A stretch of 64,000 nt of DNA from Candidatus Hodarchaeaceae archaeon. GTDB lineage: Archaea > Hadarchaeota > Hadarchaeia > Hadarchaeales > Hadarchaeaceae. The position numbers and the translations under genes were made by a program. Below, piece after piece: positions 7,516 through 43,520 of this stretch. Under the pieces are notes generated by a model. The model did not search any database, was not told the origin of the DNA, and worked only from the letters and a program-made list of their open reading frames with translations. Where the stretch lies: assembly GCA_030016755.1 (NCBI GenBank), contig JASEJC010000001.1:4883-68882 (forward strand), given 5' to 3'. Within the stretch, counting starts at the first letter, position 1. Each line of letters starts with the position of its first letter.

Positions 7516-8079
7516 TCAGGCTGAATATCGTTTGTCTAACTCTCCAACTAGTTCTCTCACAGGTTTGAACTCTTTCATATACCGAGCCAAATCCTTCTTC
7601 ACCGCACGCCATAGTTCGTCCAACTCGCGTGAACGGTTGCCTCGCTCGCGATATTTGACCGCCTGTACAAGCATCGAGAGATAGTCGGCTGCGTGGACGA
7701 GGTTGGCCTCGGGGGTGCGCTTCTCGCTGTACTCCTGCCAAAGCGCCAGATATTTTTCTCTTTTCGGCAGCTTACCAAAGAGATCCTCAAGTGCTCTTTT
7801 TTCGACGCGCTTCTTCGTGCCTGCGGGCCCCAAGTATTTCAAAGCCGTGTAGGGGAAGTCACCGACCGATGCCTCAGCCCAATCGTGCACGACCGCCATG
7901 CTGAGTGCTCGCCCCTGATCAATTTTCTTGCCCTGGCGCTCGAGTTCATCGGCAAGGAGTAAAGTTATTGCCGTAACATCGAATGTGTGTTGCGCCACAT
8001 CCTCGACCTCGCTGGACGAAACGTTGCAAAGCAGCCAACCCGTGCGGGGGATGCGCTTGAGGTTGTTGAGCCGCTCCAA
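7516..8079 (-). CDS. HD-domain phosphohydrolase (YfbR-like 5'-deoxynucleotidase family)
   Basis: RIPRTGW near the N-terminus, H...HD pattern (AQHTFDV, VVHDWAE), 187 aa. Confidence 0.8.
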   Translation of the reverse strand: MERLNNLKRIPRTGWLLCNVSSSEVEDVAQHTFDVTAITLLLADELERQGKKIDQGRALSMAVVHDWAEASVGDFPYTALKYLGPAGTKKRVEKRALEDLFGKLPKREKYLALWQEYSEKRTPEANLVHAADYLSMLVQAVKYRERGNRSRELDELWRAVKKDLARYMKEFKPVRELVGELDKRYSA

Positions 8080-8093
8080 AAATTCATTTAATT

Positions 8094-8498
8094 TCAGACG
8101 ACCACCAGCTTGGCCTGCTTGACCCCACGGAGGGCGCCCAACCGATCGACGAGCTTGCGGATCTTCTCAGCTGGACCCTTGACGATTAACGTCTCTAAGC
8201 AGTTTTTGGTGTCCACGTGTAAATGCTGGACTGCGCCTATGATACTCAAACTCGCGTGTTGGATATCCATGAGCGCATCAGTCAGTCCTCGAACATCGTG
8301 CTCATACATCACGAGGATGGCGCCAAGTTGTTCTCCCTTTAACTCGCTGCGCCACTTGTAACTCGCCAAGAAATCCCGAAGCGCGTCCCTCACCGCTTCT
8401 GAGCGGCTCGCGTAGCCCTGAGCTTTGAGCATGCGATCGAGCTCATCTAGCAAATCTTGGGGCAACGTCAAGCTCACCCGCGTTATCCTTTGCGACAT
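8094..8498 (-). CDS. nikR: Nickel-responsive regulator NikR (ribbon-helix-helix plus C-terminal metal-binding domain)
   Basis: RVSLTLPQDLLDELD...GYASRSEAVRDALR forms the RHH. The C-terminal domain contains HVHLD-like VQHLHVD. The start was set at MSQRITRVS (8498). Confidence 0.85.
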   Translation of the reverse strand: MSQRITRVSLTLPQDLLDELDRMLKAQGYASRSEAVRDALRDFLASYKWRSELKGEQLGAILVMYEHDVRGLTDALMDIQHASLSIIGAVQHLHVDTKNCLETLIVKGPAEKIRKLVDRLGALRGVKQAKLVVV

Positions 8499-12951: not shown

Positions 12952-14277
12952 CTAAATTCCCGTACTAAACTGTACAGGCAATTTTTCTGGCTCCATCCCC
13001 AGCTTCGCTTGGGCTACAAGCCCATCCACTGGGGACTGCATCTGCCAGCAGTCGGCGGGGACGTGCCTCGCCCCATCCTTAGCTATGTTCCAGCTCGCCA
13101 CCAAGTGACGGCTGGCCTCGAACCCGCAAGCTTTGCACCTGTAGGTGTGCCCATTCGGCCTGTTGTACCGGCCACATATCGGGCAGTCCTTCGACTTGTG
13201 GTAGTTGCTGACCTCCACCGTTGGCAGTCCTTGTCGCGCCACCTTGTACTCGGCATAGAACTGGAACTTTCGGAAAGGCCACTGGTTGAGCCTCCTGCGC
13301 ATGTCCTTCCGCAGGGCCCTGCCGTTCTTCGACTTGCGCTTCGAGCGCATGAAACCACGAATTCCCTTGATACCCCCGAAGGTGACCGCGACTCGCTCTC
13401 GCTCGGCAATCTTGGCGATCTGTTTGCTGACAACGTGTAGGATCTGGTTAGTGCGGTTGCGCTCCCTTCGCCAGTACTTCGCCTTGAGCCTGCGCTTCTG
13501 CACCGGTCGCTGCGGTGGCGTATCCAGCTTTCGCTGAATCGATTTGCGCTTGAGCTGTGACGAGTGCCTTATCGCGGGGAGCTTTGAGACATCGAGACTG
13601 ATGTGTTTTGGCTGTTCGTTTGGCTTCAGGATGGTCAAATCAACGCTCTGCTCGTTGATGTCTATGCCGCAGATGCCCTCCGTTGGCCTCGGTTCCACCT
13701 CGCACTTGAACGGCACAAAAACATTGGCTCGATCTTTGAATAGCGAGATCGTGATTTCCCCGACTTTCTTTTTACCTTCCCGCCAGTCGCGGAGGTATCG
13801 GAGTACGTGGTGCTCGGTCACCACGAGCGGAAGCCAAAGGTACTCCCCGCGACGGATTCTGATTTGAATCACATTTCCGCAGAACCTGCAAACGCCAGTT
13901 TGGTTTCTATCGCCCCAGAGTTCTAGGCGCATTGTCCGCGCTTTGTAGGCGGGTGGCTTCTCCGGGTTCGCCTGTCCTTGGCGACAGAGCTTCCGCCACG
14001 AGCGGAGCGTCTGCGTAGCCATCTGCCCGGCCGAGTGGAACCAGTGCGTCGCTAGATCAAAGCGCGACTTCCACTCCTCGTAGGCGACGTGATGTAGCGA
14101 GGCGCGGGAAGTAACCTTATGTTCGAGGCACTTCTGGATGTAGAAGTTAACCGACTCCGCGAACTTGCCGAGGAGATCGCCCAGCAGCTCGCGCTTTCGC
14201 CCAGTCAGCGGAGGTGTAATGAATCTAGCGGAGCTGACGGACTGCACATCTTCTACCTCCGATGCGTTTTCTACCAT
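12952..14277 (-). CDS. TnpB-like (IS200/IS605 OrfB family) protein with apparently degenerate RuvC motifs II and III
   Basis: GICGIDINE (RuvC-I), zinc ribbon CPICG...CKACG and C-terminal WNIA are present. The expected IVxEDL reads VAVTFGGI, and the expected RDxNAAxNI reads RHLVASWNI. The track ORF extends to GTG 14412. ATG 14277 (MVENAS) lies about 45 nt downstream of a TATA-like box. Confidence 0.85.
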   Translation of the reverse strand: MVENASEVEDVQSVSSARFITPPLTGRKRELLGDLLGKFAESVNFYIQKCLEHKVTSRASLHHVAYEEWKSRFDLATHWFHSAGQMATQTLRSWRKLCRQGQANPEKPPAYKARTMRLELWGDRNQTGVCRFCGNVIQIRIRRGEYLWLPLVVTEHHVLRYLRDWREGKKKVGEITISLFKDRANVFVPFKCEVEPRPTEGICGIDINEQSVDLTILKPNEQPKHISLDVSKLPAIRHSSQLKRKSIQRKLDTPPQRPVQKRRLKAKYWRRERNRTNQILHVVSKQIAKIAERERVAVTFGGIKGIRGFMRSKRKSKNGRALRKDMRRRLNQWPFRKFQFYAEYKVARQGLPTVEVSNYHKSKDCPICGRYNRPNGHTYRCKACGFEASRHLVASWNIAKDGARHVPADCWQMQSPVDGLVAQAKLGMEPEKLPVQFSTGI

Positions 14278-14320
14278 TTTCTGCCCAAGCCACTTTGGGG
14301 GAGGGGGGTCTCCGAAAGTA

Positions 14321-14338
14321 ATATATAAACTATTTAAA
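14321..14338 (-). promoter_or_regulatory. TATA-like box (minus strand CCTTTAAATAGTTTATATAT) upstream of the TnpB-like ORF
   Basis: AT-rich box in an otherwise GC-rich spacer, about 45 nt upstream of ATG 14277. Confidence 0.4.
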
Positions 14339-14449
14339 GGGCTCCCAGGCACGACCTGATTGTCTTCTAGAGCCCATTTTTGGTGCCTTTTTTCGCCATT
14401 TTTCAGGGGCACCGAAAGTATTCCCCGAATGATACGGTCTGGTACGGTT

Positions 14450-19427: not shown

Positions 19428-20921
19428 TTAGATTATTTTCAATTTTTTCACAACCGAGGCACACGCGTTTACCAATGAGTTGCCCCACCGCGGCTTATCG
19501 TTAAACAACAAGACCTGCTCATAGCGTTCGCCGTGCTGCTTCAGAAAGCTGGAAAGGGACTCGGCAACTGCCCTAATCTGCTCAGGGTCCAGTTCTCTCG
19601 GCACCTGCAGCTGTCCAAGGGGGTAGACTTCCTCCAGCTCTTCCGGGACAACCCCAAAGGGGGGCACCAGCTTCACTAGGTGGGTCTTCTCAGGCTCCGG
19701 CAGCTCGGGGCGTTCCCCCTCAAACGCAGGCATGATTGCCAAGATAGGCAGTGGCGGTGGTTCATACCGCTCCTCAAGCCTACGCATATGGCGCAGGACC
19801 TCCGGGCGGCCGGCCGACTCCTCACCTGAGTAGAAAAAGGCGGATGTTTTTGTCACCGGATCGAAGCGCTCGATGAAGTCCCTGTAGCTCATGAGCCTCC
19901 TAAAGCCATCCAGCAGCCGAGGATGGGCCCGGCACCTGAGCTGGACATGTTGCCACAACCTCCCCTCAACAATCGCCTGCCGGATACGCCGAAGTTCCCC
20001 AAAGGTCACGTGAAGGTTATGCCTGGCCAAGAGCTTGACCTGCTCGTCCTCTGGTGCATCATACAACTTTTCCGGAGAACCCCCAGCGCAAACCGGACAC
20101 TCGCAGGGCAGGTACGAGAGTTCCTCAAGCTTAAGTGTTCCCTCCGAGGTGAGGTATCTCCCGTCCCGCGCGTATAGCACGTAAGCAGCGGAGTCGAAGA
20201 GATCGCACCCCATCGCCACCGCCAGCGCGAACATCATTGGGTGTCCAGCGCCGAAGAGGTGGGCGGGGCGCTGGGGTGGCAGGTTCTGCTTAGCCGCCAT
20301 CACCAGATCAACCAGCTCGGCGAACCGGTAGCCCTCCAACAACTCGACGGGACTGCCTATGGCATGCAGCTGGTAGTCGAGCTTTCCAACCTCGCGCGCG
20401 GACTCCGCCACCAAATCGCTGAAAAGCCCCCCTTGGACGGGGCCGCACCACATGACCTTTGGGTTGGAGCGGAGTTTGACTGCCTGCCGGGCACGCTCGA
20501 GCGTCACTTGAACGGTCTCCGCTGCCCGCTCCCTAGTGGTTTGGACGCCGGTCGGGATATCAAGTATCGTGGCGATGTCGGGGGCGATGGCGTCTTGATA
20601 TCGCACGATCTCCTCGGGCGAAACCTCCACGCCGCCGTAGCGGAGGATCTGGTACCCGCCAGAATCCGTGAAAATAGGTCCGTTGTAATCCAGTATCCCG
20701 TGAATTTTTCGCTTCTCAGCCTCCTCGCCGAAGCTGCGCAGGGTCAGATAGGCGTTCGTCATCATCAGCTCGGCACCGAACTCCCGCCTCATCTGCCTTG
20801 GTGATAGCAGAATGTCCGATGGGGCTATCACAGGCATGAGCGTCGGCGTGGTCACATCGCCGTGTGCGGTGGTAAGCTTGCCCACTCGACCCAAGCCGTC
20901 TCGGTGTAGAACCTCGAAGAT
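19428..20921 (-). CDS. tgtA: tRNA-guanine(15) transglycosylase (archaeosine TGT); short form without an evident PUA domain
   Basis: FEVLHRDGLGRVGKL...TPTLMPV, FTDSGGYQ and zinc motif CECPVC. The track ORF starts at TTG 20894. The conserved N-terminus extends in frame to ATC 20921 (see findings). Confidence 0.85.
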   Translation of the reverse strand: MFEVLHRDGLGRVGKLTTAHGDVTTPTLMPVIAPSDILLSPRQMRREFGAELMMTNAYLTLRSFGEEAEKRKIHGILDYNGPIFTDSGGYQILRYGGVEVSPEEIVRYQDAIAPDIATILDIPTGVQTTRERAAETVQVTLERARQAVKLRSNPKVMWCGPVQGGLFSDLVAESAREVGKLDYQLHAIGSPVELLEGYRFAELVDLVMAAKQNLPPQRPAHLFGAGHPMMFALAVAMGCDLFDSAAYVLYARDGRYLTSEGTLKLEELSYLPCECPVCAGGSPEKLYDAPEDEQVKLLARHNLHVTFGELRRIRQAIVEGRLWQHVQLRCRAHPRLLDGFRRLMSYRDFIERFDPVTKTSAFFYSGEESAGRPEVLRHMRRLEERYEPPPLPILAIMPAFEGERPELPEPEKTHLVKLVPPFGVVPEELEEVYPLGQLQVPRELDPEQIRAVAESLSSFLKQHGERYEQVLLFNDKPRWGNSLVNACASVVKKLKII

Positions 20922-20982
20922 GGAATCACCATATCAGACTGCATGAGAAACAACAAAAAGTTTTATTGCCAATGGAGGGGGG

Positions 20983-22194
20983 CTAGCAGACCGGGAACTT
21001 GCCTTCCGCAAGCTCCTTACAGAACTCATCGATGTGCTCGAGTTCGGAATCCATTGTTTTTCCTATTTGCCATCGAATGCTCCCTATATCTACTCCTGGT
21101 TTTGTGATGACTCGGGCGGTGGCTATTGCTGGTTCATCGATTGGTTTGCCTATTTGGCTCACGAGCCAGACGTAGACCTCGCTCAGGCCCGGAACTTGGG
21201 TATAAATTTCGTTCGCGATCTTGTGGGCCAGGATATTGTATATCTTGCCGACATGGCTCACTGGGTTCTTTCCAGCCGCAGCCTCCGACCCCGTATGGCG
21301 ATTGAGCGGGATGACCCCGTTTGGCCTGTTGCCCCTGCCGACCTGCCCGGAGTCCGCACCGTCCGCACTCGTCCCGAGCACCGTGAGGTAAACCCCACCA
21401 ACCCCGCGCCCCCTTGCGTCAAGCGTGTTTAATTTTAGGTCGACCTTTTTGAAATCGGAGTTTTTGACCACAAACGCGCGCAGTTGGTCGAGGATCTCCT
21501 CCTTTTTCCTAAAGTAATCGTCCTCGCTCTCTACGTGCCTGTCTACAAAAGCCATCCCCACCGTTAGGGAAAGCTCGTTGTTGACCCTGAACCCCATTAC
21601 CTTCACATCCTCACCCGTCGCGGGGAACTCCTTTTTGAACTTGCTCGAGTTGAGGAACTGCTCGGTCTTCAACACGAGCCGCTCGGTCGGAGTCATTGGG
21701 GCATAGCCGACCGCAGCTGAGGTGTCGTTCGCGCTGAGGACCTTGCCCTTGCGCCTGAAGATGTCCGTCAGAGCCGCTGAGCCTGGCTTGAGTTCGACCT
21801 GATATCGCATATGTTTCTCAGGGTCAACAAACCTCAGGTTTTTCCTGATCCAGTCCTTCGCCGCGCGTATCGCTATCTCCTTAACTGGAATCCTTACCCC
21901 TTCTACCTCCTCAGTGGCCCGGTCGCCGAATATCAGTAGCATTGGTTGCTTGACCTCTCCCCCGCCAAATCGTGTTTCCACCTCTCCTGCCACAAGTAAC
22001 GACTTGTCAGCGTTGTGATGCATGATGGTGCCAAATTTTTTTATGTACTCTTTACTCAACTCAACCGAAACCCGATCTAGAATCGCATCGCATATCGAAT
22101 CGGGATGACCCAAACCCTTCCGCTCTACCACCTCAAGCTTCTGCTCTTCCAATGGGGTCTGCTTGAACTCCTCAACCATGATGTTTCGCACCAA
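20983..22194 (-). CDS. mat: Archaeal-type S-adenosylmethionine synthetase
   Basis: 403 aa. VERKGLGHPDSICDAI and overall similarity to the archaeal MAT family rather than bacterial MetK. Confidence 0.92.
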   Translation of the reverse strand: MVRNIMVEEFKQTPLEEQKLEVVERKGLGHPDSICDAILDRVSVELSKEYIKKFGTIMHHNADKSLLVAGEVETRFGGGEVKQPMLLIFGDRATEEVEGVRIPVKEIAIRAAKDWIRKNLRFVDPEKHMRYQVELKPGSAALTDIFRRKGKVLSANDTSAAVGYAPMTPTERLVLKTEQFLNSSKFKKEFPATGEDVKVMGFRVNNELSLTVGMAFVDRHVESEDDYFRKKEEILDQLRAFVVKNSDFKKVDLKLNTLDARGRGVGGVYLTVLGTSADGADSGQVGRGNRPNGVIPLNRHTGSEAAAGKNPVSHVGKIYNILAHKIANEIYTQVPGLSEVYVWLVSQIGKPIDEPAIATARVITKPGVDIGSIRWQIGKTMDSELEHIDEFCKELAEGKFPVC

Positions 22195-30100: not shown

Positions 30101-33100
30101 TTATTTATTCTTGCCCTTGGCGTTGCCTCGCCCCTGATTACCGCCACCTTGGTCTAGGTTTCCACCACGTTGCCCTGGCCCTGCCCGCCACCCTGATTCT
30201 CCTTGACCTTGGCCCGGAGATTGACCGCCCTGCTCGGGAGGCGTTTGGGGTGGGCCTTGTCCCTGCCCTTGGTTTCCACCCTGCCCCGGCGTCCCGCCCG
30301 ATTGGCCTGGCGGAACTTCTGGCCTGTTCCCGTGACCTTGGCCCTGTCCCTCACTAGGTTTGATAACCCGGATGGTGTCGCTTCCTCTGAACGGTGCGGA
30401 GCCCCACTTGCCGATTACCGTCAGCTCAACATTGTCACCAACGCTCACCAGCCCTTGCACGGCCGAGCGATCGAACTTAACCATCAGGTCTGGCACGCCG
30501 TCGCCGTCGTGGTCACCGATCTCGGTTGGCCAAGGCTCAGCGGATAGGATTCCCTCGAGGAAGATGTCGCCCTCGAGAGCCACGGTGCTCACGTCGATTT
30601 TCGCCACATCAAGGCCGCCCGGCAGCTCGATGTAGCAGGTTATCCAGCGGCCTTGGCTACGGAGGTTTAGAGTTTCAGGGTCGATGTCGATCATAGCGGG
30701 TATCAAGGTGGCACACCTGGCGTCGGCTTCCGGTGGCGGCCCCTCGACGTTTCCCGCCACATCGCAGGCTATAGAGTAGAACTCGTAGAAGCCGTGGCCT
30801 GCTGGTATGTCGAACGACCACTCGTAGGGCTCCTCGTTGTCGGCCCCGAACGATGTCCAATCGCCCCAAGTTGAATTGTCGAGCGAATGGCGGTAGTAAA
30901 GCTCGACGCTCGCGACGCCGCTCAGTCCATCCGATGCTGTGGCGGTAATTGCAAAAGGCGTCAAGGTCTGCCAGTAGGGCTCGATCGGATCGACCGAGGA
31001 GACCGGTGGAGTAGTGTCAACCCCGATCCTCTCATCGGGCTCCTCGGGTGCCTTCTCGACATTTCCGGCAACGTCTGCGGCGATCGAGTAGAGTTCGTAG
31101 TAACCATTGCCTTGGGACGGGTCGAACTGCCAAGCGTACGGGGACTGGTCATCAGCGGCGTAAAGCGTCCAGCCCGACCAGTTGAGGTTATCGGGCGAGT
31201 AACGGTAGTATAATCTGACATCCCTCATTCCGCTTGGTACGGCACCGTTCGGCGGGACTGGATCGTTTGCCGCGGCAGTCACTTCAATTGGAAGCATCGA
31301 AGCGTTGTGCCAGTGGGGTTCGATTGAGTTAAGGCTGGAAATGGGGGGCAGCGTGTCGACGCCCGCCTGTGCATCGGCACTCTCCGGGGCCGCCTCACGG
31401 TTTCCGGCTCGGTCCGCCGCAACCGAGTAGAACTCATAGAAGCCATCGCCAGCGGGGGCATCGAATGTCCAAGAGTAAGGTTCGGAATTGTCTATGTCGT
31501 AAAGCGCCCAGTCGCTCCATGTTGAGTTATCAGCGGAGTATCGGTACCACAGTTCAATGTTTTCGGCTCCACTCAGCGCGTCGGAAACCGTGGCGGTTAC
31601 CTGGAACGGGACCGTCCCCGCGTTCTGCCACAATGGGCTGACTGGGTCAACGGAAGATAATGGTGGCATAGTGTCAACGCCGCACATCGCGCCCGTAACC
31701 ACGGCCTTCACGGTTGGAGTGTACTTCCAGCCGCCATCCGTGTAGATGCTCTCGCCGTTCCACACCGCGTCCCATATGGTTCCAATCCCAGAGGCAACGG
31801 ACATCAATCCTCCTGAGGGTAACTCATACCTCCAGATCTTGCCATCTTGCCACACAAGGTACAGATATCCATCACCGGGTATCATTATCGAAACTATCGC
31901 CACGGGATACGGGTATCCGGGCGCTTGCACGGGTGTGACGCCGGAGATCGTCTTCAATCTGACCCAGCTATCGGAAGAAATCGTATACCTCCACAGTTCC
32001 AATGAATAATATGTCCCCTCAAGGAGCGCATAAATGTGATCCCGTCCATCCCACGTCAAGTCCGCTGCCAGCATGCTAGACGGGAACGATAGGGTATCCC
32101 ACCTGTTGCCCGAGATGGAGTACCGCAAGAAGATCCCACCGTTGTCCAAGGTGTAAATGTAATCGTCGCCAGTCCATACCAGTGCCCCCCTGTGAATCCC
32201 GATGGGAGTTGATGCCATGCTCTCCCAGCGGTTTGCTGAGATGGAATATCGCCAGAAGTCATGCTTGGGGTCGAAGTAGTAGCCTCTAAGGGCGTAGAGA
32301 TGCCCATCTGCCCAAATCAAGCTGTTGAAGCTCGCCCCTTCAGCCGGCATAGCGGTCAGGTGCGTCCACGTATTGTTGGAGATAGAGTAACTCCAGAGTT
32401 CGCTCCATGTGCGCATGTATACCTTGTCGCCCCCATCCCAAGCCAGCCCCCTCCAGCCCTCGGTGGATGCCGGAGCCGAGATGGAAGAGAACGTTCCATC
32501 AACATGAACTACTGAGACAGCCCCCCTCATCCCCTCCGCGTTGCCAGCGCGATCTGTTGCGACGCTTGTGAACTCGTAGTACCCGTCCCCCGCAGGAGAA
32601 TCGAACTTCCAAGTCCAAGGCTCGTTGTCATCGATGCCGAGCGACCGCCACTCGGACCAGCTTGAGTTATCTGGCGAGTAGCGGTAGAAAAGCTCAACGT
32701 TACCGACCCCTGAGAGGATATCCGACGCTTTTGCGGTCACCTCAAGCGGGAGGGTCTCATCATTTTGCCAATAAGGCGTTATTTGGTCGAGGTAAGATTC
32801 TGGAGGCGTGGTGTCCACACCAGCTCTAGCAGTCGCCTTCGGCCATGTTATGTGTGTGTCCACATTCACATCGCCGAATAGGTCAAACCATACTGTGTAA
32901 ATGTAGTCGGATGTATCAGATCCAGCAAACTCGCTTCTGATGTTCCCATCCACAGAGATGACCTCAATGTTACCAATTCGAACAGGTTCGGGTAACCATA
33001 TCCGACCTCTGAAACCTTCTAGCTCCTCCACCCATTCATCAACAGGCTCAGGAATCCAGTGCCGGCCCCATATTTCTTTTATTTCCATCCTTACCCTGAT

Positions 33101-36100
33101 ATCGACGTCCATCATGGTTACATCTATCCACGTGGGCCACCAACCATTCTCCCAATATCCGTAAAAGTTCTCGCCTTCGATCTCGATCCAAATCCCATAA
33201 GTTCCATTCGGGTTCCCGGGATTTCCTCCGTACTCATACTCTGGGGCCTCGACCTCATATGGTCCGCGCTCAAAAGAGGCCCCTGCCTCACCCCTAAGGC
33301 TTCCTATGAGCGTTCTCGATTCGACCACGGGCTGCTCGAGGTTCCCCGCCCTGTCAACGGCGAGGGTGCCGAACTCGTAGTAACCGTCCTCCTCGGGGGC
33401 GTCGAATGAGCACTCCCATGGCCACTCGTTATCAACACCGTAAAGCCTCCAGTCGTTCCAGCCCATGTTGTCATTTGAGTACCTGTAGAACAGCATGACC
33501 TCTTTAACGCCGCTCCGGTCGTCCGTCGCGGTTGCCGTGATAGTGAAAGGCAGCTCACTTTGCCAGTAGGGTGAGATCGTATCTACAGATGAGGTGGGCG
33601 GGACGGTATCGATGTAGACGTATGTGGCCCCCGACCAATCGCTCCAAGCCCCCGCCCCGTTCTGTGCGCGGACCTTGATGTAATAAATGCCATCAGCTAA
33701 AGTTGGATGATAGCTAGTATCCGTTGTGTAAAACGTGTCTTCCGACCAAGAGCGGTATACCTCATATTGATTCACCCCAGTATCAGGATCGCTTGCTACC
33801 CAGTACCAATGCGGTGAATTGTGGTTCGACCATTCTCTGCCGCAGTGATCCTCACCGACTATCGGGGTAGTTGGAGGCGTTGTATCCACGACTAAGGTGT
33901 AAGTGCCGTCACCGCTAATTTTACGAACCTCGATATAGTAATAACCCGACATCTCCGCAGTATAGATTATCTCCTCGCTCATGTGGCCTAGATGTGTGGA
34001 ACTCGCGATTAAGTTCTGTTCAGGATCGTATAGATGAAGGTCGAAATCACATTCGTGGTTTTCTTTTATGCCAATCGTTTTGCCCTTTTCTGCCCCAATT
34101 TGATAAAAGTCCTTTATATCCACCCCTCTTAAGCTGCCTGTGTATCTCCCCGAAAGTATCCTCCTTGGGCAATCAAGATTATCGCCTGCATCGCCTGCGA
34201 ATCCCGCATCAAATTGTTGTTCGATCCTAATCATCTCCGTGTCTAAATAACTTACCCCGGCGTATTTCGCTCTTGCTCTCAGGAGATAAGTGCCGCTTGG
34301 AGCATTTGCCGGCGCAAATATTGACTCCCTATAATACGCAGAACTGCCTGATCCGAGGGTAGTCCTATCAATAAGTCCGCCACTGATGGTCTGGCCATTA
34401 CTGTCCATGAACTCCAAGTATACATCAACTCGCTCTAAAGTGCGTGGTAAGTTATTACGCACATCGAAGAGAACGTAAAACTCATCGCCTGCCATAACTT
34501 CTGAAGGGGCCTCTAATAAATTAACGGTCAGCTCATTAATGACCCTCATCGGCATTTGTGGATCACCTAGCAAAACTGTTGTCAGTATCAGACCCCGATT
34601 ATTTGGATCACCGACCCCTTTCTCTTGTAAGTACTGCCGCTTTGCGGCATCTAAACACACCGCCGGTTGGTACCGATGTTCTGTAAAAAATTTCTGCCAA
34701 AAAAGAACATCAAGTTTTCCGCTTAAATCCTCATTAAGACCAGGTTCAAAAAGAACTCCGTGCACGTATGGTGCCTCTCTAGAGTTACCTACATAAGCGA
34801 TTGCAGTTTTTCCTTCGACAAAGGGACTGTATAGAGAATATTCACCTATCGTTGGTTTATCGTAATCGAAACTCGCAGAATAACATGCTACTACATACAT
34901 CAAAAAACCTTCTGAATTTGTAAGTTGAGCTACCGTGCATTCTCGGTAAAATGGAAAAAAGTCCTTTTTTCCTTTCTTTCCTTTTGCCGATAACTCAATT
35001 TCGTTTCCATGTGAAAACGAGTTAATGATTCCGGGTTCAAGTTGATTTATGGCATTCACTACGTTTATCTCTGTTAAATTCGCATCTTCGTCATAAAGTG
35101 TATGAGTGTCAACCTGCCCCCTTGCGAAATTAGCTATGGGGGCTTTAACTTCTGAACCATAATGGTCCCTAGTCCAACTTTGGTATATCCAGCCGCCGAG
35201 TAAAAGGAAATCCTCAACCGCCGGGCGATTAGCACCATACTCTGTGATCTTTTTAATAGATGGGGTTGGTACCCTGCTGACGTGGACCTCTGGTATCCAA
35301 TCTACTTCATCAAAAATTATCGATCCTAAAAAGGAAGCAAATTCACCGAAATTGCTATTGGTATTGTAATCGTCCCAAGTTCCATCCAAACAAGCATAAT
35401 AAGAATCTGCTGGCGCAAACGCTCGCCAAACCTCTCCGCGTTTCTTTGCTTGTTCTTCGAATATCCCATACAAGCGTACGTATCTTGTAGGAAGTTCCCA
35501 GTAATTGTCAAGCGCTGGTGGCTGCGGTGTCGCATCATAGGACGTTGGCCTATCGGCTGGATCCACGTCACCATTCAACAACACCCACTTGACATTTTTA
35601 TTAAGATAATACCATTTAATGCAATTTCTTATTTTTTCCGGTATATCTCTACCTTGGTAAGTATTTGTGATGCCGAGTGTGACATGGTCAAAAATCACGT
35701 TCCCGTCTTCGCTTTGATCTACCGTGACAACGTATGTTTCTAACCCCCAATCCTCTTTTTGCCGTACAAAGGCGTTCAAGTCCGCATCAACTAACTTTGG
35801 TCGCGTCACGATGAGGTAACCATCATCATTTGAGTTCTCTTGGGAGGCTAAATCATCATGTTTGATTTCAGACTCTAGACTATTATATGGAGGGTCTACT
35901 TCTACATACACCTTAATTTGTTCATAAAATACCATCTCCCCTACTGAAGGACGATATTGAATCGGGTAAACCCAGATGCCAATTACTAGCGACCCTCCTT
36001 CCCCACCCACCACCATAGCTTCCCCCAAACGTCCGGGATAGAATAAACCTGAATTATAAACGTTCCCATCCAGAAATAAAACCGTTGATTGTGATGTTTG

Positions 36101-36499
36101 TGCTGGTATAATGTAACTACCTTCAGTAAGTTGAAGTGTAATAGGGTCACTTGTTTCAAAACTAACGCTTACTATCTGTGGCAGCTCTTCTAACAAACAA
36201 CCGTCAGCCCAAGGAACTTTCAACAAATGCCCTTTGTAAGGCAACATCGGCTTGCCTTGAGCATTTAAGTAGGTACAATTTTCAATTCTCACAATGCTAT
36301 AATTTTCGTTTTCTTCGATTCGAGGAAAATCAAACGTAAATGTGTATTCAACTATTACGTTTTGGTTGTCTGATATAGTCTCGGCTGCCATGCTCACTTG
36401 AGAAGTGCCATTTTCTACGAGCGTGAAACCAGAAGTTAAAGGAATAAAACAAAGCAATAAAAAACCAAATATTGGTAGAATCCTAATAATCCATTTGAT
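30101..36499 (-). CDS. Giant secreted/surface protein: C25-type cysteine peptidase + CARDB-like + PPC domain + repeated Ig-like modules + Kelch-like propeller + Gly/Gln/Pro tail
   Basis: Uninterrupted 2118-aa track ORF (TTG 36457). The in-frame upstream codons encode a signal-peptide-like KWIIRILPIFGFLL beginning at ATC 36499. The domain evidence is listed under the separate features. Confidence 0.9.
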   Translation of the reverse strand: MKWIIRILPIFGFLLLCFIPLTSGFTLVENGTSQVSMAAETISDNQNVIVEYTFTFDFPRIEENENYSIVRIENCTYLNAQGKPMLPYKGHLLKVPWADGCLLEELPQIVSVSFETSDPITLQLTEGSYIIPAQTSQSTVLFLDGNVYNSGLFYPGRLGEAMVVGGEGGSLVIGIWVYPIQYRPSVGEMVFYEQIKVYVEVDPPYNSLESEIKHDDLASQENSNDDGYLIVTRPKLVDADLNAFVRQKEDWGLETYVVTVDQSEDGNVIFDHVTLGITNTYQGRDIPEKIRNCIKWYYLNKNVKWVLLNGDVDPADRPTSYDATPQPPALDNYWELPTRYVRLYGIFEEQAKKRGEVWRAFAPADSYYACLDGTWDDYNTNSNFGEFASFLGSIIFDEVDWIPEVHVSRVPTPSIKKITEYGANRPAVEDFLLLGGWIYQSWTRDHYGSEVKAPIANFARGQVDTHTLYDEDANLTEINVVNAINQLEPGIINSFSHGNEIELSAKGKKGKKDFFPFYRECTVAQLTNSEGFLMYVVACYSASFDYDKPTIGEYSLYSPFVEGKTAIAYVGNSREAPYVHGVLFEPGLNEDLSGKLDVLFWQKFFTEHRYQPAVCLDAAKRQYLQEKGVGDPNNRGLILTTVLLGDPQMPMRVINELTVNLLEAPSEVMAGDEFYVLFDVRNNLPRTLERVDVYLEFMDSNGQTISGGLIDRTTLGSGSSAYYRESIFAPANAPSGTYLLRARAKYAGVSYLDTEMIRIEQQFDAGFAGDAGDNLDCPRRILSGRYTGSLRGVDIKDFYQIGAEKGKTIGIKENHECDFDLHLYDPEQNLIASSTHLGHMSEEIIYTAEMSGYYYIEVRKISGDGTYTLVVDTTPPTTPIVGEDHCGREWSNHNSPHWYWVASDPDTGVNQYEVYRSWSEDTFYTTDTSYHPTLADGIYYIKVRAQNGAGAWSDWSGATYVYIDTVPPTSSVDTISPYWQSELPFTITATATDDRSGVKEVMLFYRYSNDNMGWNDWRLYGVDNEWPWECSFDAPEEDGYYEFGTLAVDRAGNLEQPVVESRTLIGSLRGEAGASFERGPYEVEAPEYEYGGNPGNPNGTYGIWIEIEGENFYGYWENGWWPTWIDVTMMDVDIRVRMEIKEIWGRHWIPEPVDEWVEELEGFRGRIWLPEPVRIGNIEVISVDGNIRSEFAGSDTSDYIYTVWFDLFGDVNVDTHITWPKATARAGVDTTPPESYLDQITPYWQNDETLPLEVTAKASDILSGVGNVELFYRYSPDNSSWSEWRSLGIDDNEPWTWKFDSPAGDGYYEFTSVATDRAGNAEGMRGAVSVVHVDGTFSSISAPASTEGWRGLAWDGGDKVYMRTWSELWSYSISNNTWTHLTAMPAEGASFNSLIWADGHLYALRGYYFDPKHDFWRYSISANRWESMASTPIGIHRGALVWTGDDYIYTLDNGGIFLRYSISGNRWDTLSFPSSMLAADLTWDGRDHIYALLEGTYYSLELWRYTISSDSWVRLKTISGVTPVQAPGYPYPVAIVSIMIPGDGYLYLVWQDGKIWRYELPSGGLMSVASGIGTIWDAVWNGESIYTDGGWKYTPTVKAVVTGAMCGVDTMPPLSSVDPVSPLWQNAGTVPFQVTATVSDALSGAENIELWYRYSADNSTWSDWALYDIDNSEPYSWTFDAPAGDGFYEFYSVAADRAGNREAAPESADAQAGVDTLPPISSLNSIEPHWHNASMLPIEVTAAANDPVPPNGAVPSGMRDVRLYYRYSPDNLNWSGWTLYAADDQSPYAWQFDPSQGNGYYELYSIAADVAGNVEKAPEEPDERIGVDTTPPVSSVDPIEPYWQTLTPFAITATASDGLSGVASVELYYRHSLDNSTWGDWTSFGADNEEPYEWSFDIPAGHGFYEFYSIACDVAGNVEGPPPEADARCATLIPAMIDIDPETLNLRSQGRWITCYIELPGGLDVAKIDVSTVALEGDIFLEGILSAEPWPTEIGDHDGDGVPDLMVKFDRSAVQGLVSVGDNVELTVIGKWGSAPFRGSDTIRVIKPSEGQGQGHGNRPEVPPGQSGGTPGQGGNQGQGQGPPQTPPEQGGQSPGQGQGESGWRAGPGQRGGNLDQGGGNQGRGNAKGKNK
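30104..30358 (-). repeat. C-terminal low-complexity Gly/Gln/Pro-rich tail ending GNAKGKNK
   Basis: aa ~2034-2118: GQGQGHGN...GQGGNQGQGQGPPQTPPEQGGQSPGQGQG. No C-terminal TM or PGF-type sorting signal. Confidence 0.8.
30713..31678 (-). repeat. Three tandem ~106-113-aa repeat modules (VDTxPPxSSV...SGV...YRYSxDNxxWxxW...PYxWxFDxPxGxGxYEFYSxAxDxAGNxE)
   Basis: aa 1594-1915 of the track ORF. Two further diverged copies lie at nt 33302-33613 and 32498-32821. Confidence 0.85.
31688..32461 (-). repeat. Kelch-like beta-propeller (about six blades) inserted between repeat modules of the giant protein
   Basis: Recurrent blade pattern: ...LWSYSISNNTW..., FWRYSISANRW, FLRYSISGNRW, LWRYTISSDSW, IWRYELPSGG. 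Each is preceded by a G-x-hydrophobic-Y strand. Confidence 0.7.
33887..34204 (-). other. Pre-peptidase C-terminal (PPC)-like domain of the giant protein
   Basis: GDAGDN...DIKDFYQIGAEKGKTIGI...DFDLHLYDPEQNLIASS...GYYYIEVRKISGDGTYTLVV follows the PPC pattern. Confidence 0.65.
34538..35830 (-). other. Peptidase C25 (gingipain/caspase-fold) catalytic region of the giant protein
   Basis: Domain opening YLIVTRPKLVDADLNAFVRQKEDWGLETYVV. Candidate catalytic His in NSFSHGNE (aa 483) and Cys in YVVACYSASF (aa 525). Confidence 0.7.
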
Positions 36500-38553: not shown

Positions 38554-38892
38554 CTACTCGCCCTCCTTTTTCACCATTATTTCGGCCCCGACCGTTCGCC
38601 TGATCACCTCGCGCAGCTCATCGACCTTCGGTGTGTACCCAGTTTTGTCGGGAATTCGGAGCACGAGGGGGAGCAGCCGCTTCGCCCGCATCGCCTGGCG
38701 GAACTCGAACCCGAGCTCCTCCGCGACGCGATGGGTCAATAGGATGAGCCCGATCTCATCGCTTGCTAAAAATTCTTTCAGCTTGGCGAGCGTCTCGTCC
38801 TTCGTCGCGTGAACGTGTGCGTAGGTGGCGCCAGCCAAGGCCATGCCCGTGGTGGTGTCCAGATCCCCGATGACGGCAACTCTATAACTCAA
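38554..38892 (-). CDS. atpF: A-type ATP synthase subunit F
   Basis: 112 aa. VAVIGDLDTTTGMALAG pattern, position between C and D. Confidence 0.85.
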   Translation of the reverse strand: MSYRVAVIGDLDTTTGMALAGATYAHVHATKDETLAKLKEFLASDEIGLILLTHRVAEELGFEFRQAMRAKRLLPLVLRIPDKTGYTPKVDELREVIRRTVGAEIMVKKEGE

Positions 38893-40015
38893 TCTTTGCC
38901 ACCCTCGTGATTTTTTCCTTTATTTTCTGCGGCTCCGCGCCGTCCGCCTTGAGCCTGATTATCGCGCGCAGGTTTCGCATCTCGTTCTCCTTCAGGTTGA
39001 TGTACGAAACCACGGGCGCTATGCTGAAGAACTGGGTGAACTCAAGCCACCTACATAATTTAAGGTGCACTTCATCGAGAGCCCGCTCGGCCGCGGAGAT
39101 CCCTTGCTCCTCTATCTGCGGCATGGCTTCTGCCAAAATTTTGCCTGGGGTGGTGATGTGGATCATGTGTATTGCCGAGCGGACGTCCTCGGCCGTGACC
39201 ATCGCCTTCAACATCACATCCGTCAGCTCGTGCGAAGGCTTCACAAGATACTTGTCGATTTCATCTGGTGGGGTGCCCTCATGTTTGAGCCGCAAAATCA
39301 GCTTGATGTTCACCGAGTCGATCTCGTAGCCGATAATCGCCTTTAGTATTGACCGCTGTGCCCTCTTTGCCAGCACGTCCTCCCACAGGGCCTTGTAATA
39401 GTGCTTGTCGAGAGCCAAAAGCAATGCAATCAAGCCGCGCTTCTCGTAATCCTCCAGTGCCGCCGATATCACGTCGAAGTACTCACTTCCCTTCAGGAAT
39501 TCCAGCAATCCTTTCAAATCCTCTGCTGACGTGAGCATCTCGAGCCTCTCGCGGGGCATCGTCGGTGAAGACAACAGCACTTGTAATCTTTGCTCCTTTG
39601 GAATCTTGTTGTGAATCATTGTGATGAGGGCCTTGAGGTTCCAGAGGTCCACCCGCTGGAGTATCCTCAAAACGGTTCCCTTGCGTTGCTCCGGCACCAT
39701 GGCGATGAGCTCGCGGTAGCGTGCGTTCAAATTCTCCCTCAGCGCTCGCTCCACCGCCACCATGTCGACTTCCTCGCCTTTCGCGACCTCGGCGAGCTGC
39801 GGTCGGTATTCAGTGTCTTCCAGAGCGGAGAATATGTTCACGATCCTCGGGGCGTCCGCAAGCTCCATCAGACGGGCCTCCGATAGCAGCCTCGCCTCCC
39901 ACGCGCTTATGGTCGCGTTGCAGAAGACGTACGGCATCGAGCGGCGGGCGCTGATGATCACTAGGGCAAACATGGCACCTATCAGGGCTAGGACAAAAAT
40001 TAGGACCTCTATCAT
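38882..40015 (-). CDS. atpC: A-type ATP synthase subunit C (d-like); possible 26-aa hydrophobic N-terminal extension
   Basis: YVFCNATISAWEARLLS is the usual subunit-C N-terminus and begins at aa 28. ATG 40015 overlaps the atpE stop (ATGA). The alternative start is ATG 39937. Confidence 0.85.
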   Translation of the reverse strand: MIEVLIFVLALIGAMFALVIISARRSMPYVFCNATISAWEARLLSEARLMELADAPRIVNIFSALEDTEYRPQLAEVAKGEEVDMVAVERALRENLNARYRELIAMVPEQRKGTVLRILQRVDLWNLKALITMIHNKIPKEQRLQVLLSSPTMPRERLEMLTSAEDLKGLLEFLKGSEYFDVISAALEDYEKRGLIALLLALDKHYYKALWEDVLAKRAQRSILKAIIGYEIDSVNIKLILRLKHEGTPPDEIDKYLVKPSHELTDVMLKAMVTAEDVRSAIHMIHITTPGKILAEAMPQIEEQGISAAERALDEVHLKLCRWLEFTQFFSIAPVVSYINLKENEMRNLRAIIRLKADGAEPQKIKEKITRVAKIEL

Positions 40016-40641
40016 TTGAACCCTTCGAAGAGGACCTTTGCTATTTTTACTCGCAGGGTTTCAAATTCCCTCCGCATCCTGCCCTCGAACGTCTCGTCGA
40101 TTTCAACCTTCCCATCAGGCGTTCCGACCCTTACCCCGCCGATCACCTGAATGGGCTCCCCGAAAGAAATCGTCACGCTTTTCTTATCCCCGCCCAGCTC
40201 GCGCTCTATCTGGTCCTTGGTCCCTGCTAGCAGCTTCAGATCACGGCGATTGGCCCGGATGACGACGCTGTCCGAACCGAGCTTCTTGCCCGCAGCCACA
40301 GCGATGCCGACCAAGTCCTTCTCATATTTTTTTGACGATGCGTGGGCCCGTAGTTTATCCTCCACCTCCTTGAGGACCTCGTTTATCAACGCCTCCCGCT
40401 TCTGGAGCATCTCCCTTTTGGCCTTCATTCGGCCTTCGGCGAGCACTTGTCCGTAAATCTGCTTTCCTTGGATGCGCGCCTCTTTGACAACTCGTTCTTC
40501 CTCCTCCTTGGCACCAAAGCTGGCTGCATCGAGCAGCGTCTTTGCCTCCCGCTTCGCCGCCCTGATTATCTCCGTGGATTTCTCCTTAGCCTCCTTGAGG
40601 ATATCCTCCGCTATCAGCTGGGCGCCTTTCTCTGCTGGCAA
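40012..40641 (-). CDS. atpE: A-type ATP synthase subunit E
   Basis: 209 aa. N-terminal charged coiled coil (IAEDILKEAKEKSTEIIRAAKREAK) and a globular C-terminus. Confidence 0.85.
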   Translation of the reverse strand: MPAEKGAQLIAEDILKEAKEKSTEIIRAAKREAKTLLDAASFGAKEEEERVVKEARIQGKQIYGQVLAEGRMKAKREMLQKREALINEVLKEVEDKLRAHASSKKYEKDLVGIAVAAGKKLGSDSVVIRANRRDLKLLAGTKDQIERELGGDKKSVTISFGEPIQVIGGVRVGTPDGKVEIDETFEGRMRREFETLRVKIAKVLFEGFK

Positions 40642-40654
40642 GACATGCCCCCCC

Positions 40655-43166: not shown

Positions 43167-43170
43167 CGGG

Positions 43171-43494: not shown

Positions 43495-43520
43495 CAGCGC
43501 CTATGGTAATTTGTTGTGGT

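What the first reader, a model, noticed from the sequence alone, without database searches (positions are those of the whole stretch)
20892..20936. The conserved N-terminus of tgtA lacks a canonical start codon (ATC start, or a 1-nt frameshift from an upstream ATG)
Archaeosine TGTs begin about M-x-FE(I/V)xxRD-G-xGR(I/V)G. Here the frame after a TGA (20934-20936) reads Y G D S I(ATC, 20919-20921) F E V L H R D G L G R V G K.... The first canonical start in frame is TTG 20894, which would delete the conserved FEVLHRDG strand. GGTGAT, complementary to the 3' end of archaeal 16S rRNA, ends 3 nt before the ATC. Alternatively, ATG 20932 (ATG GTG ATT CCA TCT TCG...) is in the +1 frame and would need a single-base shift to join. 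With the giant-gene case, this makes two ATC-start candidates in one window.
Basis: partly seen in the sequence, partly recalled or inferred. Interest (0 to 1): 0.55.

Follow-up and report, generated by a model that had tools for sequence, protein, structure and literature searches.

The report
Conserved AUH start codon of tgtA
The tRNA-modifying enzyme gene tgtA in this uncultured Hadarchaeota archaeon most likely starts translation at an ATC codon placed behind a ribosome-binding site; the same arrangement is kept in about forty related genomes, so it is real biology rather than an assembly error, and gene callers handle it inconsistently.

Summary
On the minus strand the tgtA frame reads TGA(20936-34) Y G D S I(ATC 20921-19) F E V L H R D G L(TTG 20894-92). 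GGTGAT (20930-25) ends 3 nt before the ATC, and ATG 20932-30 is out of frame.

I compared 43 Hadarchaeota tgtA loci from independent assemblies.
- This codon is ATT in 23, ATC in 15, ATA in 4 and GTC in 1. It is never ATG in this group.
- GGTG(A/G)T is nearly invariant at -9..-4, and the 3-nt spacer is unconserved.
- A stop codon lies directly before the ATH in three genomes.
- 28 of 43 have no in-frame ATG/GTG/TTG upstream.
- Codons 2-9 carry the same three-base conservation pattern as the rest of the gene.
- Sister lineages have ATG at exactly this codon (M-F-E-I).
- The SD-to-start distance equals the commonest distance at canonical ORF starts in these genomes.

Best explanation: Shine-Dalgarno-guided initiation at a near-cognate AUH codon, inherited from an ATG-to-ATH change. 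An assembly indel, a frameshift from the upstream ATG, and a truncated protein from TTG 20894 are each poorly supported.

This is a new member of a known kind. NCBI records already start two related genes at ATT or ATC. Initiation itself is not shown. Interest is moderate.

The parts
19428..20921 (-). tgtA coding sequence read from the proposed ATC start to the TAA stop (497 codons plus stop). It encodes tRNA-guanine(15) transglycosylase, the archaeosine TGT, in a short form without a PUA domain.
   Evidence: TIGR00432 scores 566 bits against a cutoff of 350, with profile positions 1-440 on residues 6-445 of the Y-started translation. Pfam finds TGT plus a weak DUF5591. 1IQ8 aligns with E = 3e-112.
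20919..20921 (-). ATC, the proposed near-cognate initiation codon
   Evidence: The same codon position is ATT/ATC/ATA in 42 of 43 Hadarchaeota loci. It is ATG in the sister lineages L094, L016, L021 and L033. The residue before Phe is free to vary where a canonical upstream start exists.
20922..20924 (-). 3-nt spacer (TCC) between the SD and ATC; non-coding
   Evidence: Information content is 0.18-0.24 bits per position in a 26-sequence subset. There are 22 different triplets in 43 loci, including TGA twice and TAA once.
20925..20930 (-). GGTGAT Shine-Dalgarno sequence, complementary to the AUCACC near the 3' end of archaeal 16S rRNA
   Evidence: In a 26-sequence subset, positions -9, -8, -7, -6 and -4 carry 1.5-2.0 bits while the flanks carry about 0.2 bits. 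The 5-nt gap from GGTG to the start is the modal gap at canonical ORF starts in the same genomes. P. abyssi aEF1A mRNA has GGAGGUGAU + 4 nt + AUG (PMC6237735).
20930..20932 (-). Out-of-frame ATG that overlaps the first G of the SD; probably not the tgtA start
   Evidence: Its frame gives a 26-codon ORF. An NTG at this position occurs in 25 of 43 loci, and the alternative-frame ORF is 1-31 codons long and unconserved.
20934..20936 (-). In-frame TGA stop five codons upstream of ATC; it closes the tgtA frame upstream
   Evidence: upstream stop at -5 codons, with no canonical start in between.
20892..20894 (-). First canonical in-frame start (TTG, Leu10). It is the default gene-caller start and would delete the conserved FEVLHRDG strand.
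   Evidence: Codons 2-9 upstream of it show coding-type periodicity.
20954..20964 (-). AAAACTTTTTG, a promoter-like (BRE/TATA-like) A/T element at -43..-33 from ATC. It implies a transcript start near -10 and a 5' UTR of about 9-11 nt that is essentially just the SD. This is an inference.
   Evidence: In the loci whose coordinates I indexed by hand (window, L001, L019, with a related CTTTGT element in L012), a T-run sits at about -38..-32 inside otherwise unconserved sequence. Similar TTTTAA/TTTTTA boxes lie about 25 nt upstream of other gene starts in the window. No transcript data are available.
20983..22194 (-). Upstream gene metK (archaeal methionine adenosyltransferase). Synteny with tgtA is conserved, and in one subclade tgtA follows its stop by about 25 nt.
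   Evidence: NF003363 scores 653 bits. The metK C-terminus is visible upstream of tgtA in L024, L028, L031 and L089-L101.

Best explanation
tgtA is translated from the ATC at 20921-20919. The small ribosomal subunit pairs the 3' end of its 16S rRNA with GGUGAU (20930-20925). That places the codon 3 nt downstream in the P site, where initiator tRNA accepts the near-cognate AUC. The protein then begins (M)-F-E-V-L-H-R-D-G, like its relatives that start M-F-E-I.

The state is inherited. An ancestral ATG at this exact codon became ATH in a large Hadarchaeota group and has stayed ATH since then, drifting among ATC, ATT and ATA. A weak start probably keeps TgtA output low. The transcript probably begins about 10 nt upstream, so the leader is little more than the SD.

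Shown here: the conserved anatomy, and the coding status of codons 2-9. Inferred: that initiation happens at AUC, the identity of the first residue, the transcript start, and any selective reason for a weak start.
For: 1. ATH is conserved. Among 43 Hadarchaeota loci from independent assemblies the codon is ATT in 23, ATC in 15, ATA in 4 and GTC in 1.
2. No other start is available. 28 of 43 loci have no in-frame ATG/GTG/TTG between the upstream stop and ATH. In L001 (TGA), L022 (TAA) and L113 (TGA) a stop codon lies directly before ATH.
3. The downstream codons are coding. In a 26-sequence subset, codons 2-9 have position-wise information of 1.26/1.69/0.70 bits, against 1.33/1.62/0.62 for codons 10-20. 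Upstream sequence has about 0.2 bits and no periodicity. The peptide matches the N-terminal segment of TgtA in TIGR00432 and in 1IQ8.
4. The SD is conserved as nucleotides, not as codons. GGTG(A/G)T is nearly invariant at -9..-4, and the spacer is unconserved.
5. The geometry is right. The GGTG-to-start gap of 5 nt is the mode for canonical ORF starts in these genomes, with 10 of the 31 hits that fall at gaps of 4-8 nt. Window genes at 25959 (GAGGTGAT-TAA-GTG) and 22278 (TTGGTGGT-TTC-TTG) use the same 3-nt spacer.
6. The codon is homologous to a real start. Sister lineages carry ATG at the same codon, and L094 (AGTGGT-TCC-ATG) and L016 (GTGAT-TGCC-ATG) keep the SD-spacer layout.
7. ATH is not kept for an isoleucine. 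Where a canonical upstream start exists, the residue before Phe is A, F, T, D, S, C, V, R or N.
8. In the subclade where tgtA follows metK by about 25 nt (L089-L101), the layout is still GGTGGT-AAA-ATT with no upstream NTG.
9. NCBI-sourced proteins already start at ATT (P0073 on L027) and ATC (P0001 on L081).
10. The start region has no special RNA structure (z = +1.09).
Against: - There is no direct evidence of initiation: no proteomics, ribosome profiling or transcript 5' ends.
- AUH codons are poor starts in the systems that have been tested, and aIF1 is reported to discriminate against non-canonical start codons (PMC6237735).
- The third position of the codon evolves exactly like that of a conserved Ile codon. 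Codon 4, also ATH, behaves the same way. So 'never G' does not by itself show start-codon selection.
- One genome (L002) has GTC at this position, while its close relatives L083 and L084 have ATC.
- 25 of 43 loci have an out-of-frame ATG/GTG/TTG at -11, and T at -10 is moderately conserved (1.0 bit in the 26-sequence subset). This is not explained by SD pairing.
- The Hadarchaeota 16S 3' end was not inspected. The anti-SD is assumed from general archaeal knowledge.
Confidence: 0.8

Rival explanations
1. Assembly or sequencing indel. The true sequence is ATGGGTGAT... (M-G-D-S-I-F-E-V), and one G of a short G run was lost in this assembly, which put the real ATG out of frame.
For: L082 (P0003) has exactly ATG GGT GAT GCG ATC TTC, with the ATG in frame through one extra G. 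P0020 (MGDAIF) looks the same at the protein level.
Against: The out-of-frame or ATG-less layout recurs in dozens of independent assemblies from different projects and assemblers. Three loci have a stop codon directly before ATH. 18 of 43 have no NTG at -11 at all. A two-base G run is not a typical error hotspot.
Confidence: 0.03
2. Programmed -1 ribosomal frameshift. Translation starts at the out-of-frame ATG 20932 (or the GTG inside GGTGAT), perhaps on a leaderless mRNA, and slips into the tgtA frame within the first four codons. The SD-like GGUGAU acts as a stimulator, as in dnaX or prfB.
For: 25 of 43 loci have ATG, GTG or TTG at -11, and a GTG inside the SD is almost always in that same frame. 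The promoter-like element predicts a transcript start close to this NTG. SD-like stimulators of frameshifting are established in bacteria (prfB, dnaX; established knowledge).
Against: There is no conserved slippery sequence: the only place the shift could occur is the spacer, which has 22 different triplets in 43 loci. In L001, L022 and L113 the shift would have to happen on the single codon that overlaps a zero-frame stop. The metK-coupled subclade lacks the NTG (AGG, ACG or AAG at -11). The alternative-frame ORF is 1-31 codons long and unconserved. Indels that change the frame relation (L082, L004, L014) occur between close relatives.
Confidence: 0.04
3. The protein really starts at the first canonical codon, TTG 20894 (Met/Leu of DG-M/L-GRVGK). 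The upstream IFEVLHRDG codons are an untranslated relic.
For: This codon is ATG or TTG in 42 of 43 loci (codon 10). 31 of 95 database proteins are called from it.
Against: Codons 2-9 keep coding-type three-base periodicity and amino-acid conservation equal to the downstream codons, across sequences down to about 60% identity. A relic would decay and collect stops and indels. The segment is the first conserved strand of the catalytic domain in TIGR00432 and in 1IQ8. No SD precedes the TTG, whereas a conserved SD precedes ATH. Minor additional initiation at this codon is not excluded.
Confidence: 0.07
4. Initiation at the AUC happens without the SD. Possible routes are reinitiation or 70S-type scanning after translation of an upstream or overlapping ORF (metK or a short ORF), or a 5'-end-dependent route. 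The GGTGAT would then be conserved for another reason, such as a transcription start element.
For: In L089-L101 tgtA lies about 25 nt after the metK stop. In L081 a 21-codon upstream ORF ends in a TGA that overlaps codons 2-3 of tgtA. T at -10 is conserved without any SD-pairing role.
Against: GGTG(A/G)T is kept at the same register both in loci with the promoter-like element and in metK-coupled loci, and it matches the genome's own canonical SD spacing. The window has 62 nt and a promoter-like element between metK and tgtA.
Confidence: 0.06

Closest known systems
E. coli infC (IF3) and pcnB AUU start codons (established knowledge)
   Same: An SD-led gene whose start is a conserved AUH near-cognate codon. 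The weak start limits output, and in the infC case it is evolutionarily conserved.
   Different: Those genes are bacterial. The infC start is the sensor of an IF3 autoregulatory loop, and no such loop is known or tested for TgtA. Here the codon drifts freely among AUC, AUU and AUA. The initiation machinery is archaeal (aIF1, aIF1A, aIF2).
Non-canonical initiation codons found by N-terminal proteomics in Deinococcus deserti (PMC2830850; title and abstract seen)
   Same: Genes whose conserved N-terminus lacks an ATG/GTG/TTG start, so standard gene callers mis-place the start.
   Different: That work rests on experimental N-termini in a bacterium. The present case is comparative evidence only, in an uncultured archaeon, and shows clade-wide conservation for one gene.
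Archaeal SD-dependent initiation as studied on P. abyssi aEF1A mRNA, and near-cognate sites in Haloferax ribosome profiling (PMC6237735; PMC7261190)
   Same: The SD is of the GGAGGUGAU type with a 3-4 nt spacer to the start. About 30% of putative alternative initiation sites in H. volcanii were at near-cognate codons, so archaeal ribosomes can engage such codons.
   Different: The model mRNA uses AUG. The Haloferax near-cognate sites were set aside as possible false positives and are not primary starts of conserved enzymes.
prfB (+1) and dnaX (-1) programmed frameshifts with SD-like stimulators (established knowledge)
   Same: An SD-like element lies a few nucleotides upstream of the point where the productive frame begins, and a start codon is present in another frame.
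   Different: There is no conserved slippery site, the upstream start is absent in 18 of 43 loci, and the required shift (-1) would have to occur on an unconserved triplet.

Membership tests
TgtA / archaeosine tRNA-guanine(15) transglycosylase | Full-length match to the equivalog model above its curated cutoff | tested here: met
   TIGR00432 scores 566.2 bits against a cutoff of 350, covering profile positions 1-440 of 441.
TgtA / archaeosine tRNA-guanine(15) transglycosylase | TGT catalytic domain, including the N-terminal FE(I/V)xxRDGxGR strand and the CxCxxC...H zinc motif | tested here: met
   Pfam TGT covers residues 15-338. 1IQ8 residues 10-388 align starting at FEV/FEI. C273, C275, C278 and H301 are invariant in the 30-sequence alignment.
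TgtA / archaeosine tRNA-guanine(15) transglycosylase | C-terminal PUA domain, as in P. horikoshii ArcTGT (582 aa) | tested here: not met
   Pfam finds only TGT and a weak DUF5591. The protein has 497 aa, and the 1IQ8 alignment ends at residue 388 of that chain. The short form is shared by all Hadarchaeota homologues. The PUA domain lies outside the TIGR00432 model.
SD-led near-cognate (AUH) start codon | Conserved coding sequence extends upstream of every in-frame canonical start, and the frame is closed by a stop upstream | tested here: met
   In the window TGA lies 5 codons upstream with no ATG/GTG/TTG in between. The same holds in 28 of 43 loci, and a stop is adjacent to ATH in three. Codons 2-9 show coding periodicity.
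SD-led near-cognate (AUH) start codon | SD complementary to the 16S 3' end at the spacing used by canonical genes of the same genome | tested here: met
   GGTG(A/G)T is nearly invariant at -9..-4. The 5-nt gap equals the mode for canonical ORF starts. The 16S 3' end of this lineage was itself not inspected.
SD-led near-cognate (AUH) start codon | The near-cognate codon is conserved in orthologues and is homologous to a canonical start in relatives | tested here: met
   42 of 43 loci have ATH. ATG sits at the same codon in L094, L016, L021 and L033.
SD-led near-cognate (AUH) start codon | Direct demonstration of initiation (N-terminal peptide, toeprint, or initiation-site ribosome profiling) | not testable with these tools
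   The lineage is uncultured and no such data were accessible.
infC-type autoregulated AUU start | Expression responds to an initiation factor, or to the gene's own product, through the weak start codon | not testable with these tools
   The only hint is that there are no ATH-to-ATG changes among at least 10 third-position changes. A conserved Ile codon (codon 4) behaves in the same way.
Programmed ribosomal frameshift site | Conserved slippery sequence and a conserved upstream ORF start in the other frame | tested here: not met
   The spacer has 22 different triplets. An NTG at -11 occurs in 25 of 43 loci only. The alternative-frame ORF is 1-31 codons long.
Assembly artefact (indel) | The feature is confined to this assembly, and relatives have an intact canonical start | tested here: not met
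   The same layout occurs in 42 other loci from genome and metagenome collections.

The most novel reading that the evidence does not exclude
The weak AUH start of tgtA is actively maintained by selection as a translational control point. This could be a feedback loop in which the archaeosine (G15) status of initiator tRNA, or aIF1 activity, sets how well the near-cognate codon is accepted, which would make it an archaeal analogue of the infC AUU / IF3 loop. More broadly, Hadarchaeota may use strong-SD plus 3-nt-spacer near-cognate starts in several genes: the window also has an HD-hydrolase CTG start and a possible ATC start on the giant gene.
Probability: 0.15. Interest if true: 0.65.

Novelty: new member of a known kind. 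Interest (0 to 1): 0.4.

Why it matters
**Annotation.** Of the 95 closest TgtA cluster representatives in the public protein collection, 54 are called too short, 33 are extended upstream by 1-29 residues, and only 8 start at the right codon. Some extensions (for example P0005, P0042 and P0084) run across the SD and the promoter-like element. Family models, structure predictions and orthologue alignments for this phylum inherit those errors.

**Biology.** This is a clean, clade-wide example of a near-cognate start on a housekeeping tRNA-modification gene in Archaea, where non-AUG/GUG/UUG initiation is barely documented. The fixed SD-3 nt-AUH geometry gives a ready natural substrate for archaeal in vitro initiation systems. 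Those systems could test how the SD and aIF1 set start-codon stringency.

**Evolution.** The case shows an ATG-to-ATH change that was retained over deep divergence (down to about 60% protein identity). Some lineages later regained a canonical start through 1-nt indels or spacer mutations (L082, L004, L013, L014).

Tried and rejected
- **Bacterial promoter and terminator scan of 20700-21200:** nothing found. The scan does not cover archaeal promoters.
- **Rfam and tRNA scans of the window:** only one intron-containing tRNA, and nothing near tgtA.
- **RNA folding of the start region:** no structure beyond shuffled controls, z = +1.09.
- **Homologue search with the giant-gene N-terminal 405 aa, to test its ATC candidate:** no hit at E <= 0.001, so it could not be tested.
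- **NCBIfam scan of 20 stop-to-stop ORFs in the window, looking for N-termini that extend beyond the first canonical start:** only the HD-hydrolase gene was flagged. The ATP synthase A start proved to be a canonical TTG.
- **Strict in-window screen for an SD of at least 5 nt followed by an in-frame ATH/CTG upstream of the first canonical start:** only tgtA.
- **Screen of about 300 kb of Hadarchaeota loci for GGTG(A/G)T + 3-4 nt + near-cognate codon at ORF 5' ends:** apart from tgtA there were two hits (window 8097 CTG and L019 6145 ATC). That is about what chance gives, so lineage-wide use is not supported by this small sample.
- **Literature:** full-text searches found nothing on Hadesarchaea start codons or on a tgtA non-canonical start.
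- **The idea that the conserved NTG at -11 marks a functional upstream start:** set aside. Only T at -10 carries information (1.0 bit), -11 is nearly free (0.2 bit), and the motif disappears in the metK-coupled subclade.
Full report
**1. The observation**

On the minus strand the sequence reads TGA(20936-34) TAT GGT GAT TCC ATC(20921-19) TTC GAG GTT CTA CAC CGA GAC GGC TTG(20894-92) GGT CGA GTG GGC AAG.
- GGTGAT occupies 20930-20925 and ends 3 nt before the ATC.
- ATG 20932-30 is in another frame and opens a 26-codon ORF.
- The ORF lister starts the gene at TTG 20894, giving 488 aa.

Every coordinate in the finding is correct.

The product is TgtA.
- NCBIfam TIGR00432 scores 566 bits against a cutoff of 350, and profile position 1 falls on the Phe that follows the ATC.
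- Pfam finds TGT plus a weak DUF5591 and no PUA domain.
- The solved P. horikoshii ArcTGT (1IQ8) aligns from its Phe10, FEIKARDGAGRIGKL against FEVLHRDGLGRVGKL.

A start at TTG 20894 would therefore remove the first conserved strand of the catalytic domain.

**2. Whose genome, and what relatives look like**

The closest proteins are from Hadesarchaea/Hadarchaeales MAGs; the best is 98% identical. Their annotated N-termini are very inconsistent. Of the 95 closest cluster representatives:
- 54 start downstream of the ATC position, including 31 at the Met/Leu of DG(M/L)GRVGK and 11 at MPVI;
- 33 are extended upstream by 1-29 residues;
- 8 start exactly there.

More distant Hadarchaeota proteins begin M-F-E-I, which puts Met exactly where the window has Ile.

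**3. DNA of the orthologous loci**

I fetched Hadarchaeota tgtA loci from species-representative genomes, from metagenome contigs and through two protein look-ups. I anchored them all on the codon aligned to the window's ATC. The set comprises 43 loci, the window included.
- The anchored codon is ATT in 23, ATC in 15, ATA in 4 and GTC in 1.
- GGTG(A/G)T sits at -9..-4. In a 26-sequence subset its information is 2.0, 1.6, 1.5, 2.0, 0.6 and 1.8 bits, against about 0.2 bits for the flanks.
- The three spacer bases carry 0.18-0.24 bits and take 22 different values. These include TGA (L001 and L113; in L113 the spacer is 4 nt) and TAA (L022), so a stop codon sits directly before ATH in three genomes.
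- 28 of 43 loci have no in-frame ATG/GTG/TTG between the nearest upstream stop and the ATH.

Codons 2-9 (F-x-I-L-x-R-D-G) have information of 1.26/1.69/0.70 bits at codon positions 1/2/3. That is the same pattern as codons 10-20 (1.33/1.62/0.62). Positions -30..-13 are flat at about 0.2 bits. So the stretch is translated, and nothing upstream of the ATH is.

**4. Is ATH there as a start or as an isoleucine?**

Where a canonical start lies upstream in frame, the residue before Phe is A, F, T, D, S, C, V, R, N or I (L024, L028 and L030). The protein therefore does not need Ile there.

On a neighbour-joining tree the lineages next to the large ATH group carry ATG at the same codon: L094, L016 and L021, with L033 deeper. 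L094 (AGTGGT-TCC-ATG) and L016 (GTGAT-TGCC-ATG) even keep the SD-spacer layout. ATH is thus the homologue of a real start codon.

A second small ATH group (L113, L026, L025) is separated from the main group on this tree. There was either one old origin with reversions or two separate origins; the tree is too crude to decide.

Within the ATH group the third base changed at least 10 times among C, T and A and never to G. With equal chances that would happen about 2% of the time. I do not lean on this, because a conserved Ile codon (codon 4) behaves identically.

**5. Geometry**

In 423 longest-ORF starts from the window and the Hadarchaeota loci, GGTG is enriched 4-8 nt upstream of the start, with the mode at 5 nt (10 of the 31 hits in that range). 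That is exactly the tgtA gap.

Two canonical genes in the window use the same layout: GAGGTGAT-TAA-GTG at 25959 and TTGGTGGT-TTC-TTG at 22278. The P. abyssi aEF1A model mRNA, described as having a strong SD, reads GGAGGUGAU-UUAA-AUG (PMC6237735).

The start region has no notable RNA structure (z = +1.09).

**6. The rivals**

*Assembly indel.* L082 does read ATG GGT GAT GCG ATC, with the ATG in frame through one more G. A lost G could therefore explain this window in isolation. But the ATG-less or out-of-frame layout recurs in dozens of independent assemblies, and three of them have a stop next to ATH.

*Frameshift from the upstream ATG.*
- An ATG/GTG/TTG at -11 is present in 25 of 43 loci.
- The whole metK-coupled subclade (L089-L101) has AGG, ACG or AAG there instead.
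- The alternative-frame ORF is 1-31 codons long.
- The only place a shift could occur is the unconserved spacer.

*Truncated protein from TTG 20894.* This is contradicted by the coding signature of codons 2-9 and by the position of the conserved SD. Some extra initiation there cannot be excluded.

*SD-independent reinitiation.* This is possible in the metK-coupled loci. It does not explain why the same SD register is kept in loci that carry the promoter-like element.

**7. Transcript context (inference)**

An A/T element, AAAACTTTTTG (20964-20954), lies at -43..-33. In the loci whose coordinates I indexed by hand (window, L001 and L019, with a related CTTTGT element in L012), a T-run sits at about -38..-32 within otherwise unconserved sequence. 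It resembles the TTTTAA/TTTTTA boxes that lie about 25 nt upstream of other starts in the window.

If it is the TATA box, transcription starts near -10 and the leader is essentially just the SD. This would also explain the moderately conserved T at -10 as part of the start-site context, and its loss in the metK-coupled loci. No transcript data were available to test this.

**8. Natural experiments**

- In L081, the closest relative by protein (98%), the first 12 codons and the upstream region are quite different, and the intervening stretch contains a short ORF whose TGA overlaps codons 2-3 of tgtA. The gene still reads GGGGGTG-CGACG-ATT TTT GAA at the same codon.
- L082 (an extra G), L004 (a C inserted in the SD), L013 (spacer = ATG) and L014 (a 1-nt insertion that puts the SD's GTG in frame) have each acquired a canonical in-frame start by a small change. 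This shows turnover between start modes.
- L002 has GTC while its close relatives L083 and L084 have ATC. This may be an error, or a gene with a crippled start.

**9. What is known**

AUH starts are established in bacteria (infC and pcnB AUU; established knowledge). N-terminal proteomics found non-canonical starts in Deinococcus deserti (PMC2830850, seen).

In Archaea, aIF1 is reported to discriminate against non-canonical starts (PMC6237735). Haloferax ribosome profiling saw about 30% of putative alternative initiation sites at near-cognate codons, but set them aside (PMC7261190).

NCBI-sourced proteins P0073 and P0001 equal the translations of L027 from ATT and of L081 from ATC, with Met as first residue. 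Annotation pipelines have therefore already accepted such starts here. I found no paper describing this.

**10. Verdict**

The indel and frameshift readings are not supported. This is a new, unusually well-conserved member of a known kind, the SD-led near-cognate start. Initiation itself remains to be shown experimentally.

**11. Also in the window**

An HD-domain hydrolase gene has the same layout with CTG: GGTGGT-CGT-CTG at 8097. Its closest homologues' Met aligns to that CTG. The giant-gene ATC candidate could not be tested. A small screen found no general excess of such starts.

Noticed in passing
window 7516-8097 (-), CTG at 8097-8095: An HD-domain (5'-deoxynucleotidase-like) gene appears to start at CTG with the same layout as tgtA: CTGGTGGT-CGT-CTG AAA TTA AAT GAA TTT TTG. 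The closest homologues (P0121, 71% identity, MKLQELF...; P0122, MNLHELLERINNLKRIPRTGW) align their Met1 to this CTG. The first canonical TTG (8079) lies 6 codons downstream and has no SD.
   Followed up: yes
window 30101-36496 (-), ATC at 36496-36494: The giant ORF (more than 2100 aa) reads TAA ... GAGGGGTTGGTTTT ATC AAA TGG ATT ATT AGG ATT CTA CCA ATA TTT GGT TTT TTA TTG, that is IKWIIRILPIFGFLLL, which looks like a signal peptide. The first canonical TTG (36457) would cut into it. The N-terminal 405 aa found no homologue at E <= 0.001, so it could not be tested comparatively.
   Followed up: partly
L081 380-500 (GCA_030018345.1, JASEFD010000050.1): The nearest relative (TgtA 98% identical) has a completely different upstream region and first 12 codons. 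DNA identity with the window starts only at CGAGTGGGCAAG. The stretch upstream of tgtA holds a 21-codon ORF whose TGA overlaps tgtA codons 2-3. This suggests a recombination or rearrangement breakpoint inside the 5' end of tgtA.
   Followed up: partly
L002 pos 3001 (CAZKGC010000062.1): This is the only locus with GTC instead of ATH at the start position; its close relatives L083 and L084 have ATC. It is either a consensus error in a co-assembly MAG or a gene with a crippled start.
   Followed up: no
window 50810-50902 (-): A tRNA gene of about 90 nt. Rfam tRNA scores 45.7 bits, but ARAGORN cannot name the anticodon, which is consistent with an intron-containing archaeal tRNA.
   Followed up: no
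window 12952-14412 (-): An ORF with a TnpB-family RNA-guided endonuclease match (NF040570, 102 bits), hence a likely IS200/IS605-type mobile element remnant.
   Followed up: no
window 20954-20964 (-) and the same offset in related loci: AAAA(C/T)TTTTTG is nearly self-complementary. In the loci indexed by hand (window, L001, L019) it sits at a fixed distance, about 23 nt, upstream of the SD. I read it as a BRE/TATA-like promoter element, but a regulator binding site or the metK terminator T-run is not excluded.
   Followed up: partly
L004/L005/L008/L010-L012/L022, about -38..-16 from ATH: In one subclade the upstream region contains the inverted repeat CTTTG-TAAGAATTATT-CAAAG just before the SD, in place of the T5 run. 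Its function is unknown.
   Followed up: no
window 38882-46764: A V/A-type ATP synthase gene cluster (subunits I, E and C on the minus strand; A and B on the plus strand). The long upstream open frame of subunit A is spurious: its start is a canonical TTG at 43596 behind GGGGTG.
   Followed up: partly
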